Part shown: positions 27,144 to 28,204 of the stretch, piece after piece
Numbering within the stretch: the stretch's first letter is position 1
Layout: each line of letters starts with the position of its first letter
Assembly (NCBI RefSeq): GCF_009914755.1
Contig: NC_060927.1
Source: the human T2T-CHM13v2.0 reference genome, Homo sapiens
Reading direction: 5' to 3' (one strand)
Length of the DNA: 64,000 nucleotides
Notes under the pieces: model-generated
Seen by the model: only the letters and a program-made list of their open reading frames with translations
Told to the model about the DNA's origin: nothing
Database searches by the model: none
Program-made: the position numbers and the translations under genes

Positions 27144-28204
27144 ATAAAAAAGTATTTTCAGTACATGAAAAAGAATGAAGTTGAAACCCTACCTCACACC
27201 ATATACAAAAATTAACTCAAGGAGTGATGCACAGAAAATGGCAGACAGAGTAGGAAGCTCCAAGAATTGACCCCTCTACTTAAGCAACCACTGAGCTGGC
27301 CAAAATGAATAGAATCATGCTACAATAATATATGAAGTGATTTTCAGTGGCTGCTAAAATCATTAGGTGAAAAGATGATGGGGCAAGGTATATAATGGAG
27401 GGATTAGACTAATAACATCTGAACCTACTGATCAATCTTAACATCACTGAAGGCGGGACAACTAGACATTATGTGTCATTCAATGAGATGCCACCTAAAA
27501 AAGTTTTCTTATTTGGCTTGGCGGCTCATGCCTGTAATCCCAACACTTTGGGAGGTGGAGGCAGGAGGACTGCTTAAGCCCAGGAGTTGGAGACCAGCCT
27601 AAGCAACATAATAAGACACTATCTCTACAAAAAATTAAAAAAATTATCCAGGCAACTCACCACCTAAAACAAACAGGAAATTAAGCCAGAAAGTAATCTT
27701 TAAAATATTATACTATGTCCTGGAAGTATTAAGCCAGAAAGTAATTTTTAAAACATTATCCTATGTCCTGAAAGTGTAAACTTCATGAAGTATTTAATAT
27801 GACATGATACTTAGAATTTGCTTTGAAATAGGCCAGGTGCAGTGGCTCATGCCTGTAATCCCAGCACTTTGGGAGGCCGAGGCAGGTGGATCATGAGGTC
27901 AGGAGTTCAAGACCAGCCTGGCCAAGATGGTGAAAACTTGTCTCTACTAAAAACTACAAAAATTAGCCGGGCACGGTGGCAGGCACCTGTCGTCCCAGCC
28001 AGATACTCAGGAGGCTGAGACAGGAGAATTGCTTGAACACAGGAGGCAGAGGTTTCAGTGAGCCGAGATTGTGCCACTGCACTCCAGCCTGGGTGACAGA
28101 GTGAGACTCTGTCTCAAAAAAAAAAAAAAAAAAAAAAAAAAAAAAAGAATTTGCTTTGAAATAAAATTTGATGTATTTTAATTCATTGTAGTATTATTCT
28201 AAAG
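27144..28204. repeat. Mosaic insertion built from locally copied segments, plus a later AluS
   Basis: 27163-27317 = inverted 28289-28444; 27322-27653 = inverted ~29380-29682; 27656-27828 = direct 32498-32617; 28162-28200 = direct 30587-30625; tactgaaa on both sides. Confidence 0.88.
27831..28145 (+). mobile_element. AluS (Sg-like) inserted inside the mosaic
   Basis: Full-length dimer, long A tail, 18-bp TSD agaatttgctttgaaata. Confidence 0.9.

What the first reader, a model, noticed from the sequence alone, without database searches (positions are those of the whole stretch)
27144..28204. Intronic 1-kb mosaic stitched from four nearby templates (fossil multi-step template-switch repair)
Seen in sequence: an old L1 5' region is split at tactgaaa (27136-27143 and again 28205-28212). 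The filler consists, in order, of: an 11-bp snap-back hairpin (tactgaaaata/tattttcagta); an inverted copy of 28289-28444; an inverted copy of ~29380-29682; a direct copy of 32498-32617 with an internal ~50-bp tandem repeat; and a direct copy of 30587-30625 (38/39 identical). The copies cross element junctions: an L1-5'/L1-ORF2 join, an Alu with its own TSD and private variants (gagttggagaccagcctaagcaacataataaga), and unique CLASP2 intron/exon sequence. They are therefore local copies, not independent repeat insertions. Inference: a single germline break was repaired by serial template switching (MMBIR/FoSTeS or Pol-theta-type) within ~5 kb. It post-dates the AluJ it copied and pre-dates the AluS that later inserted with an 18-bp TSD. 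Repeat annotation would probably show only unrelated fragments here.
Basis: partly seen in the sequence, partly recalled or inferred. Interest (0 to 1): 0.85.

Follow-up and report, generated by a model that had tools for sequence, protein, structure and literature searches.

The report
Patchwork DNA insertion copied from neighbours
A 1-kb stretch inside an intron of the human CLASP2 gene is an old scar of DNA repair, stitched together from copies of four nearby sequences; it is a clean example of a known kind of mutation, with no sign of a function.

Summary
The filler at 27144-28204 sits between two copies of TACTGAAA. Six other genomic copies of the flanking repeat run straight across this site and carry the motif once. 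From left to right the filler holds:
- an 11-bp snap-back hairpin
- an inverted copy of 28289-28444 (95%)
- an inverted copy of 29380-29682 (about 89%)
- a direct copy of 32498-32617, with a 48-bp tandem duplication
- a later Alu with an 18-bp target duplication
- a direct copy of 30587-30625 (38 of 39)

In whole-genome searches every piece matches its local donor far better than any other locus. The pieces also cross private junctions: a join between two repeats, an Alu with its own target duplication, and a CLASP2 exon/intron border. Their order is not colinear with the donors, so duplication followed by deletions cannot explain it.

Copy-to-donor divergence is statistically homogeneous (p = 0.18), about 4% per lineage, similar to the inserted Alu.

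The best reading is one old germline event of serial template switching (MMBIR/FoSTeS-like). The single-event claim and the enzyme pathway remain inferences, because no primate orthologues were available. It is a new member of a known kind, of moderate to low interest.

The parts
27136..27143 (.). Left copy of the 8-bp target duplication TACTGAAA
   Evidence: One search gives the positions. One search shows that six related repeat copies carry the homologous motif once.
27136..27163 (.). Snap-back hairpin: arms 27136-27146 and 27153-27163, loop 27147-27152. Bases 27144-27152 (ATAAAAAAG) have no identified template.
   Evidence: One search found no other local source for the 9 bases with one mismatch or fewer.
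27163..27317 (-). Segment 1: inverted copy of 28289-28444
   Evidence: 7 mismatches in 155 aligned bases plus one 1-nt gap.
27318..27321 (.). Junction J1. The donors share TCA at the switch point; 4 bases (TGCT) are only loosely alignable to donor 2.
27322..27653 (-). Segment 2: inverted copy of 29380-29682. It holds an old interspersed repeat, one copy of the donor Alu's target duplication and the first ~140 nt of that Alu.
   Evidence: 16 of 147 and 17 of 154 mismatches; a 33-mer of private Alu variants matches exactly at only these two places in the genome.
27468..27498 (.). 31 bp kept in the copy but missing from the donor. It is ancestral repeat sequence that the donor lost later.
   Evidence: the 31 bp align to the continuing sequence of four related copies (L029-L032). 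One search gives the position.
27654..27655 (.). Junction J2: two unassigned bases (AA)
27656..27828 (+). Segment 3: direct copy of 32498-32617, which is 8 nt of a CLASP2 exon plus the adjoining intron with its 3' splice site
   Evidence: the donor is the only other match in the genome. Exon coordinates come from the hub's annotation.
27680..27775 (+). 48-bp tandem duplication inside segment 3, probably a backward slip on donor 3
   Evidence: unit 1 against unit 2 differ at 4 of 48, and unit 2 against the donor at 6 of 48. Unit 1 against the donor differ at 4 of 48, read from the three 48-mers printed.
27813..27830 (.). Left target duplication of the later Alu insertion
27831..28145 (+). Younger Alu with poly(A), inserted at the junction between segments 3 and 4 after the mosaic formed
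   Evidence: 11 of 232 non-CpG differences from the majority of 39 Alu copies in the window.
28146..28163 (.). Right target duplication of the later Alu insertion
28162..28200 (+). Segment 4: direct copy of 30587-30625
   Evidence: 38 of 39; seven other genomic relatives of the donor region reach only 75-79%.
28201..28204 (.). Junction J4: four unassigned bases (AAAG)
28205..28212 (.). Right copy of the 8-bp target duplication TACTGAAA
28289..28444 (+). Donor 1, 77-232 bp right of the break. It spans a private join between two repeat families at about 28385/28386.
   Evidence: of 38 distant hits, 4 lie left of the join, 34 start at query position 168 or later, and none covers both halves.
29380..29682 (+). 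Donor 2, 1.2-1.5 kb right of the break: old repeat plus the 5' part of the donor Alu
29214..29535 (-). Donor Alu (29226-29523, minus orientation) with its 12-bp target duplication AAGAAAACTTTT at 29214-29225 and 29524-29535
   Evidence: 39 of 226 non-CpG differences from the window's Alu majority, so it is old.
30587..30625 (+). Donor 4, 2.4 kb right of the break, inside an old repeat
32498..32617 (+). Donor 3, 4.3-4.4 kb right of the break: border of CLASP2 exon 32299-32505 with its upstream intron (the gene is on the minus strand)
   Evidence: hub annotation

Best explanation
A single old germline lesion inside an interspersed repeat in a CLASP2 intron was repaired by low-processivity DNA synthesis that changed template repeatedly.

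Proposed path:
1. A free 3' end first folded back on itself and copied 8-11 nt (the hairpin).
2. It copied 155 nt from the opposite strand, 77-232 bp away.
3. It copied about 330 nt from the opposite strand, 1.2-1.5 kb away.
4. It copied about 120 nt from the same-sense strand, 4.3 kb away, slipping back 48 nt once.
5. It copied 39 nt from 2.4 kb away.
6. It returned to the original duplex 8 nt behind the point of departure, which produced the TACTGAAA duplication.

The result was a 728-bp duplicative insertion with no loss of target sequence. It was later enlarged to 1061 bp when an Alu inserted at the junction between segments 3 and 4.

Shown:
- the local templated origin of each piece
- their orientation and non-colinear order
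- the intact donors
- the target duplication
- the timing, after the old Alu and before the younger one

Inferred:
- that it was one event
- the direction of synthesis
- the pathway: replicative MMBIR/FoSTeS is preferred over polymerase-theta end joining because the segments are long and the templates lie up to 4.4 kb away
For: Local origin:
- Segment 1 matches its donor at 95% over 156 nt, against at most 85% for distant hits, all of them confined to one half.
- The non-Alu part of segment 2 matches at 89% (187 bits). The best distant hit scores 89.7 bits, and no distant hit of about 100 nt or more exceeds 79%.
- In the Alu part, a 33-mer matches exactly only at the copy and the donor in the whole assembly. 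Two more places match with 1 mismatch and 29 with 2.
- For segment 3, the donor is the only other match in the genome.
- Segment 4 matches at 97%, against 75-79% for seven relatives.

Target:
- In 6 of 7 other loci that hold the flanking repeat, the left and right flanks are adjacent and colinear. L012 matched the left flank only.
- Those loci carry the octamer's homologue once.

One site: in a self-comparison of the whole window, 18 non-Alu pairs reach 80% or more. Seven of them belong to the mosaic, and all four donor-copy relations converge on this one filler.

Order: segment 1 comes before segment 2, and segment 3 before segment 4. That is the reverse of what a single inverted or direct duplication trimmed by deletions would give (coordinates).

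Signs of a polymerase at work:
- The hairpin's left arm begins on the first base of the target duplication.
- The 48-bp slip has star-like differences among the three copies (donor 3, unit one 1, unit two 3; read).

Age:
- There are 52 mismatches in 615 aligned bases (47 of 605 at non-CpG sites), with no significant heterogeneity across six blocks (chi-square p = 0.18 and 0.33).
- That is about 4% per lineage, against 4.7% (11 of 232) for the Alu that inserted afterwards.

[quoted passage not shown] The MMBIR model is set out in PMC2621351 (abstract read).
Against: - No primate orthologue could be examined, so nothing shows directly that the pieces arose together.
- Segment 1 is about half as diverged as the rest (7 of 155 against 45 of 460; Fisher p = 0.045 for all sites, 0.084 for non-CpG sites) and has a 62-nt run without a difference (read). 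This fits gene conversion between close inverted copies, or a later addition.
- Microhomology, a hallmark of MMBIR, is clear at only one junction (TCA at J1). J0 has 1 nt, J2 and J3 have 0-1 nt, and at J4 a shared TTCT is separated from the target by 4 unassigned bases. About 9% later divergence blurs this evidence.
- Polarising the differences with related repeat copies gave 16 changes on the copy, 21 on the donor and 10 ambiguous. There is therefore no sign of the error-prone synthesis reported for such events (recalled, not read here). The outgroups are few and distant, so this test is weak.
- The younger Alu is nominally slightly more diverged (4.7%) than one lineage of the mosaic (about 4%), although it must be younger. 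The confidence ranges overlap widely.
Confidence: 0.72

Rival explanations
1. The mosaic grew in two or more separate events at a recurrently breaking site. For example, segments 2-4 came first, and the hairpin and segment 1 were added later at the left edge. Each step was still a templated local copy.
For: Segment 1 is less diverged than the others (4.5% against 9.8%). Polarised changes also differ between segments, although the numbers are small and noisy: segment 1 has 6 on the copy and 1 on the donor, while segment 2a has 4 on the copy and 14 on the donor. Small local duplications are not rare in this window: four other local pairs appear in 64 kb.
Against: Only one target duplication encloses everything, and no segment has flanking duplications of its own. 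A second break would have had to fall exactly between the left target copy and segment 2. Heterogeneity across the blocks is not significant (p = 0.18 and 0.33). Gene conversion between inverted copies less than 1 kb apart would also explain the lower divergence of segment 1.
Confidence: 0.13
2. A two-ended double-strand break was sealed by end joining that captured loose DNA fragments from the neighbourhood (fragments of a sister chromatid or of over-replicated DNA). There was no copying by a switching polymerase.
For: Most junctions show 0-1 nt of microhomology, and 2-4 (9 at the left end) unassigned bases sit at several of them. Blunt ligation with small additions produces that pattern. The 8-bp duplication could come from filling in a staggered break.
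Against: The donors are all intact, so a second copy of each fragment must be assumed. All four come from one side of the break, within 4.4 kb. The hairpin at the break and the backward 48-nt slip, which is as old as the copy itself, point to synthesis rather than ligation.
Confidence: 0.08
3. The insert was reverse-transcribed from RNA, for instance a chimeric CLASP2 pre-mRNA, and inserted by the LINE-1 machinery. That would account for a target duplication.
For: An 8-bp target duplication is present. Segment 3 is unspliced pre-mRNA-like sequence that crosses an intron/exon border.
Against: There is no poly(A) or poly(T) next to either copy of the duplication, and the flanks do not resemble the TT/AAAA nick site (sequence; the site preference is recalled). 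Two segments are sense and two antisense to the gene, so no single transcript fits. The hairpin copies the target DNA itself.
Confidence: 0.02
4. The filler is only a chance neighbourhood of independent interspersed-repeat insertions that resemble nearby repeats of the same families.
For: Parts of segments 1, 2 and 4 lie in repeat families that have other genomic copies, and the Alu part has distant matches at 86%.
Against: The local donors win everywhere. Segment 3 is unique sequence. The copies cross donor-specific junctions. The exact 33-mer is private to the pair.
Confidence: 0.01

Closest known systems
[quoted passage not shown] 2021, PMC8421209 (passages read)
   Same: [quoted passage not shown] That paper reports germline events using up to five templates and suggests that some accumulated during human evolution.
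   Different: Those events were found in short reads (search threshold 25 bp or more) and are polymorphic or recent. This one is 728 bp, has segments of 39-332 nt and templates up to 4.4 kb away, is tens of millions of years old by divergence, and its junction microhomology can no longer be read reliably.
FoSTeS/MMBIR complex genomic rearrangements, Hastings, Ira and Lupski 2009, PMC2621351 (abstract read)
   Same: Both show discontinuous duplicated pieces, some inverted, joined in a non-colinear order. The model's explanation is a 3' end priming low-processivity synthesis on nearby single-stranded DNA, with several switches.
   Different: The described disease cases span kilobases to megabases, change gene dosage and show 2-5 bp of microhomology. 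Here the scale is sub-kilobase, the net result is a simple insertion in an intron, and microhomology is clear at only one junction.
Synthesis-dependent microhomology-mediated end joining with snap-back priming, Yu and McVey 2010, PMC2943611 (passages read)
   Same: The 11-bp inverted repeat at the left junction, whose arm is the break-proximal sequence itself, is the product expected from snap-back synthesis. That paper also reports complex inserts built by repeated rounds of synthesis and dissociation.
   Different: The inserts in that Drosophila system are copies of sequence next to the break and are short. Here three of the four templates are 1.2-4.4 kb away and the segments reach 332 nt.
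Short template-switch mutations in human and great-ape genomes, PMC5453318 and PMC7954356 (seen only as search listing and abstract starts)
   Same: Both are evolutionary fossils of template switching, recognised from sequence alone.
   Different: Those are single, short switch-and-return events that create small inversion-like mutation clusters. This is a chain of at least six switches that adds 728 bp.
Patchwork 'filler DNA' at break-repair junctions in plants, and templated-insertion chains in cancer genomes
   Same: Both involve several short copies of nearby or scattered sequence strung together at one junction.
   Different: They come from different organisms or from somatic tissue. No direct comparison was made here.

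Membership tests
MMBIR/FoSTeS-type serial template-switch insertion | The inserted sequence is templated by nearby genomic sequence, and the templates stay in place | tested here: met
   All four donors lie within 4.4 kb and are intact.
MMBIR/FoSTeS-type serial template-switch insertion | Complexity: several discontinuous templates, both orientations, non-colinear order | tested here: met
   Two segments are inverted and two direct. The order of donors is 1, 2, 3, 4 by position in the filler but 1, 2, 4, 3 on the chromosome, and the inverted pair is not in inverted-colinear order.
MMBIR/FoSTeS-type serial template-switch insertion | Microhomology of about 2-5 bp at the junctions (PMC2621351 abstract) | tested here: inconclusive
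   J1 has TCA (3 nt), J0 has 1 nt, J2 and J3 have 0-1 nt with 2 unassigned bases at J2, and at J4 a shared TTCT is separated by AAAG. About 9% later divergence prevents a firm reading.
MMBIR/FoSTeS-type serial template-switch insertion | Return to the original template without loss of flanking sequence | tested here: met
   the flanks are contiguous in six related copies, and only an 8-bp duplication marks the site.
MMBIR/FoSTeS-type serial template-switch insertion | All segments made in one event | not testable with these tools
   This needs primate orthologues. Indirect support is the single enclosing duplication and the homogeneous divergence. The lower divergence of segment 1 is a caveat.
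MMBIR/FoSTeS-type serial template-switch insertion | Origin at a collapsed replication fork (one-ended break) | not testable with these tools
   Sequence alone cannot tell a one-ended from a two-ended break.
Polymerase-theta SD-MMEJ templated insertion | Snap-back or loop-out repeat that includes break-proximal sequence (PMC2943611) | tested here: met
   The hairpin arms are at 27136-27146 and 27153-27163, and the left arm starts on the first base of the target duplication.
Polymerase-theta SD-MMEJ templated insertion | Templates lie next to the break and inserts are short (the paper's text says 'nearby sequence'; the size range is recalled) | tested here: not met
   The donors lie 77 bp to 4.4 kb from the break, and the segments are 39-332 nt.
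LINE-1-mediated retrotransposed insertion | Poly(A) tail abutting one target duplication, and one orientation throughout (recalled definition) | tested here: not met
   There is no A or T run at either end, and the orientations are mixed. Only the target duplication fits.
Independent interspersed-repeat insertions | Each piece is closer to its family's other copies than to a neighbour | tested here: not met

The most novel reading that the evidence does not exclude
The mosaic is a one-step germline event with at least six template switches, a miniature of chromoanasynthesis, that became fixed in the primate lineage around the time of AluS expansion. It also changed the CLASP2 pre-mRNA. It created two long intronic double-stranded RNA stems (155 nt at 95% and about 300 nt at 89%). 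It also planted, 4.8 kb downstream of the real exon, a sense-oriented copy of that exon's 3' splice site followed 3 nt later by a GTGAGT donor-like motif. Either feature could act on RNA editing or splicing of CLASP2.
Probability: 0.08. Interest if true: 0.5.

Novelty: new member of a known kind. Interest (0 to 1): 0.35.

Why it matters
The locus is an unusually legible fossil of serial template switching. Every donor survives within 4.4 kb, the empty-site sequence can be inferred from sister repeat copies, and two Alu insertions bracket the date. Most described events of this kind are recent, small and read-length-limited, or large and pathogenic.

An old fixed one of 728 bp shows that such events enter and persist in primate germlines. 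It also shows that they can be recovered from a single assembly by looking for several high-identity local copies that converge on one insertion. Repeat annotation alone would probably report unrelated fragments here.

The locus also keeps 31 bp of ancestral sequence that the donor has since lost. Nothing found suggests a function, and the mechanism itself is established, so the value is as an example and as a search template, not as a discovery.

Tried and rejected
- **Primate orthologues:** none are held.
- **Pfam on six-frame translations of 28387-28688 and of related loci:** Stop-free pieces were used instead. 0 of 3 window pieces matched. 0 of 40 pieces from seven related loci matched an L1 family, with one unrelated thrombospondin-repeat hit in L022. 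The 40 were the longest of 197 pieces of 45 aa or more.
- **PDB sequence search:** one of two pieces gave weak hits, all to LINE-1 ORF2 protein. The other gave none.
- **Error-prone synthesis:** polarising copy-donor differences with related repeat copies found no excess on the copy (16 against 21, binomial p = 0.51).
- **A fifth template for the 31 bp at 27468-27498:** rejected. These bases are ancestral repeat sequence that the donor lost.
- **Local templates for the unassigned bases at the ends (ATAAAAAAG, AAAG):** none found with one mismatch or fewer.
- **One large inverted or direct duplication trimmed by deletions:** rejected, because the order of the segments is reversed relative to that model.
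- **RNA-mediated origin:** rejected on orientation and the missing poly(A).
- **Literature on CLASP2 together with template switching:** one unrelated paper, so this locus is not described in the searched library.
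Full report
**What is there**

The window is a piece of human chromosome 3 (hub annotation; confirmed as G000:C3:33480001-33544000). 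The finding lies in a CLASP2 intron.

The filler at 27144-28204 holds, in order:
- 9 unassigned bases that belong to a hairpin.
- Segment 1, 27163-27317, the reverse complement of 28444-28289. It has 7 mismatches in 155 aligned bases and one 1-nt gap.
- Segment 2, 27322-27653, the reverse complement of 29682-29380. It has 16 of 147 and 17 of 154 mismatches on either side of a 31-bp indel.
- Two unassigned bases.
- Segment 3, 27656-27828, a direct copy of 32498-32617. It carries a 48-bp tandem duplication at 27680-27775.
- An Alu at 27831-28145 between perfect 18-bp duplications at 27813-27830 and 28146-28163.
- Segment 4, 28162-28200, a direct copy of 30587-30625 (38 of 39).
- Four unassigned bases.

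Without the Alu and one copy of its duplication, the filler measures 728 bp.

**The target site**

Within 26500-29000, TACTGAAA occurs only at 27136 and 28205. The sequence on either side belongs to one interspersed repeat family.
- A genome search with the left flank returned seven other loci.
- In six of them (L010, L011, L013, L014, L015, L016) the left and right flanks of the filler align next to each other and in the same order. L012 matched the left flank only.
- In a multiple alignment, those six copies carry the homologue of the octamer once.

The filler is therefore an insertion into a once-continuous repeat, with an 8-bp target duplication and no loss of target. I could not confirm that this repeat is an L1 5' region. 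None of the 40 longest open-frame pieces from seven related loci matched an L1 protein family.

**Local copies, not independent repeats**

This was the refutation test that could be run. The whole assembly was searched piece by piece.
- **Donor 1.** It spans a join between two repeat families at about 28385/28386. Of 38 distant hits to 28205-28620, 4 lie wholly left of the join and 34 start at query position 168 or later. None exceeds 85% identity. The filler's copy covers both sides at 95%. The right-hand family is L1 ORF2-like: a 52-aa frame on the minus strand has LINE-1 ORF2 protein as its only PDB hits, weakly (E 0.026-0.11). Pfam gave nothing.
- **Segment 2, non-Alu part.** It belongs to an old repeat family with many copies. 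The local donor scores 187 bits at 89%. The best distant hit scores 89.7 bits, and no distant hit of about 100 nt or more exceeds 79%.
- **Segment 2, Alu part.** Distant Alus reach 86% against 88% for the donor, which would not decide the matter alone. However, the copy continues from the Alu's 5' end through one copy of that Alu's own 12-bp target duplication (AAGAAAACTTTT at 29214 and 29524) into the flanking repeat.
- **Segment 3.** It is unique: of 2 candidates in the genome, one is itself and the other is the donor. It begins 8 nt inside the CLASP2 exon at 32299-32505 and runs into the intron.
- **Segment 4.** Its donor lies in an old repeat whose seven other scored copies are 75-79% identical, against 97% for the local copy.
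- **Caveat.** The genome tool scores only the best candidates, so counts of repeats are lower bounds.

**One site, non-colinear order**

A self-comparison of the whole window, with Alu-dominated pairs removed, lists 18 pairs at 80% identity or more. Seven of them belong to this mosaic, and all four donor-copy relations end in this one filler. Four other small local duplications exist elsewhere in the window, so local copying as such is not rare here. The convergence is what stands out.

The order also matters. An inverted duplication of 28289-29682 trimmed by deletions would put segment 2 before segment 1, and a direct duplication of 30587-32617 would put segment 4 before segment 3. Both pairs are the other way round. 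At least four separate jumps are needed.

**Signs of a polymerase**
- **Hairpin.** The left junction reads as an 11-bp perfect hairpin with a 6-nt loop, and its left arm starts on the first base of the target duplication. Only 8 loci outside an (AT)n tract in the 64-kb window have so long a perfect stem with a loop of 12 nt or less. By my estimate from that count, the chance of one falling on a breakpoint is of the order of 0.005. As DNA it folds at -7.2 kcal/mol, and 0 of 200 shuffles do as well. This is the product expected from snap-back priming as described for synthesis-dependent end joining (PMC2943611, passages read).
- **Tandem duplication.** The two units of the 48-bp duplication differ from each other at 4 of 48 positions. 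Unit two differs from the donor at 6 of 48, and unit one differs from the donor at 4 of 48 (read from the three 48-mers printed). Three differences are shared by both units against the donor, one is private to unit one and three to unit two. This star-like pattern suggests that the duplication is as old as the copying, and so probably a backward slip on donor 3 during the same synthesis. The numbers are small.
- **Microhomology.** It is clear only at J1 (TCA). The other junctions show 0-1 nt or have 2-4 unassigned bases. At J4, a TTCT shared by the end of donor 4 and the target is separated from the target duplication by AAAG. With about 9% later divergence, these junctions cannot be read with confidence.

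**Age and the single-event question**

Over six blocks there are 52 mismatches in 615 aligned bases, or 47 of 605 outside CpG sites. That gives Jukes-Cantor distances of about 0.09 and 0.08, roughly 4% per lineage. Heterogeneity is not significant (chi-square p = 0.18 and 0.33).

Segment 1 is the outlier at 4.5% against 9.8% for the rest (Fisher p = 0.045 for all sites, 0.084 for non-CpG sites). It lies less than 1 kb from its donor in inverted orientation, so gene conversion is a ready explanation. A later addition cannot be excluded.

The donor Alu is old: 39 of 226 non-CpG differences from the majority of 39 Alu copies in the window. The partial copy in the filler is equally old (21 of 121). 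The Alu that later split the junction between segments 3 and 4 differs at 11 of 232 sites (4.7%).

The event is therefore bracketed between the two Alu insertions and is, within error, about as old as the younger one. Using recalled neutral rates of about 1 to 2.2 per billion sites per year, that is some 20-45 million years. This figure is an inference, not a measurement.

The 31 bp at 27468-27498, present in the copy but absent from the donor, are not a fifth template. They align to the continuing sequence of four other copies of the same old repeat (L029-L032). The donor therefore lost them after the copy was made, and the mosaic preserves an older state of its own template.

**What did not show up**

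Polarising copy-donor differences with related repeat copies gave 16 changes on the copy, 21 on the donor and 10 ambiguous. There is no excess that would indicate error-prone synthesis. The outgroups are distant (about 70-79%) and few, so this is weak evidence either way.

**Mechanism**

The best-supported account is one germline lesion repaired by low-processivity synthesis with repeated template changes:
1. snap-back on itself
2. two stretches copied from the opposite strand, 77-232 bp and 1.2-1.5 kb to the right
3. two stretches copied from the same-sense strand, 4.3 kb and then 2.4 kb to the right, with one backward slip
4. re-annealing 8 nt behind the departure point

This matches the MMBIR/FoSTeS scheme (PMC2621351, abstract read). 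It also matches the germline templated insertions reported in human genomes, which can use up to five templates (PMC8421209, passages read).

A purely polymerase-theta route is less likely, because the segments are long and the templates distant, although the hairpin is typical of it. The direction of synthesis and the nature of the initial lesion cannot be read from the sequence.

The rivals are several events at one fragile site, capture of loose fragments by end joining, an RNA-mediated insert and chance repeat insertions. They are weighed in their own sections; the last two are contradicted by the data.

**Comparison, novelty and verdict**

Nothing about this locus was found in print: a search for CLASP2 with 'template switching' gave one unrelated paper. 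The kind of event is well known, however.

The locus differs from published germline examples in four ways:
- size: 728 bp, with segments up to 332 nt
- reach: templates up to 4.4 kb away
- age
- completeness of the record: all donors survive, the empty site can be inferred, and two Alus date it

It is a new member of a known kind. No function is indicated. The double-stranded RNA arms and the copied splice acceptor are noted as possibilities only.

Interest is 0.35. It is a neat teaching example and a template for systematic searches, not a surprise.

Noticed in passing
window 27656-27700, minus strand: Segment 3 carries a sense-oriented copy of the 3' splice site of CLASP2 exon 32299-32505: the pyrimidine tract, the AG and 8 exon bases. 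The junction with segment 2 places a GTGAGT donor-like motif 3 nt after the AG. This makes a decoy acceptor or 3-nt pseudo-exon 4.8 kb downstream of the real exon. The one transcript listed by the hub has no exon here.
   Followed up: no
window 27163-27317 with 28289-28444, and 27322-27653 with 29380-29682: Both inverted copy-donor pairs lie in the same CLASP2 intron. In the pre-mRNA they would form long duplexes (155 nt at 95%, about 300 nt at 89%). These are possible substrates for RNA editing.
   Followed up: no
window 29535/29536: The donor of segment 2 has lost 31 bp that the copy keeps (27468-27498). Four related repeat copies show that these bases are ancestral.
   Followed up: yes
window 61912-62155 and 62545-62788: Another local inverted pair: 244 bp at 95.9%, arms about 390 bp apart. 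It lies in sequence related to repeats at 35471-35942. This could be a repeat with long inverted ends or another fold-back copy.
   Followed up: no
window 59213-59349/59351-59481; 63263-63331/63542-63610; 45053-45103/45114-45164: Three further small local duplications: tandem at 91%, inverted at 91%, and direct at 96%. Short local copying is not rare in this window.
   Followed up: no
window 26960-27013: An (AAC)n microsatellite sits inside the split repeat, 120 bp left of the break. In the related copy L010 the sequences on its two sides are only 3 nt apart, so the tract is private to this copy.
   Followed up: partly
window 29690-29740: A (TA)n(TG)n microsatellite lies about 10 nt beyond the edge of donor 2. 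Such a tract might have exposed single-stranded DNA there, but this is speculation.
   Followed up: no
window 27120-27135 against related loci: Just left of the target duplication, this copy of the repeat lacks about 13 bases that all six related copies have (alignment). Whether the deletion belongs to the event or is older cannot be told.
   Followed up: no
window 26637-26668: A perfect 11-bp hairpin with a 10-nt loop in GC-rich sequence. Unexplained.
   Followed up: no
L022:754-1101, minus strand: An open frame in this unrelated chromosome 3 locus matches the ADAMTS-type thrombospondin repeat (Pfam PF19030, E 1.5e-12). It is an ordinary exon near another copy of the flanking repeat.
   Followed up: no
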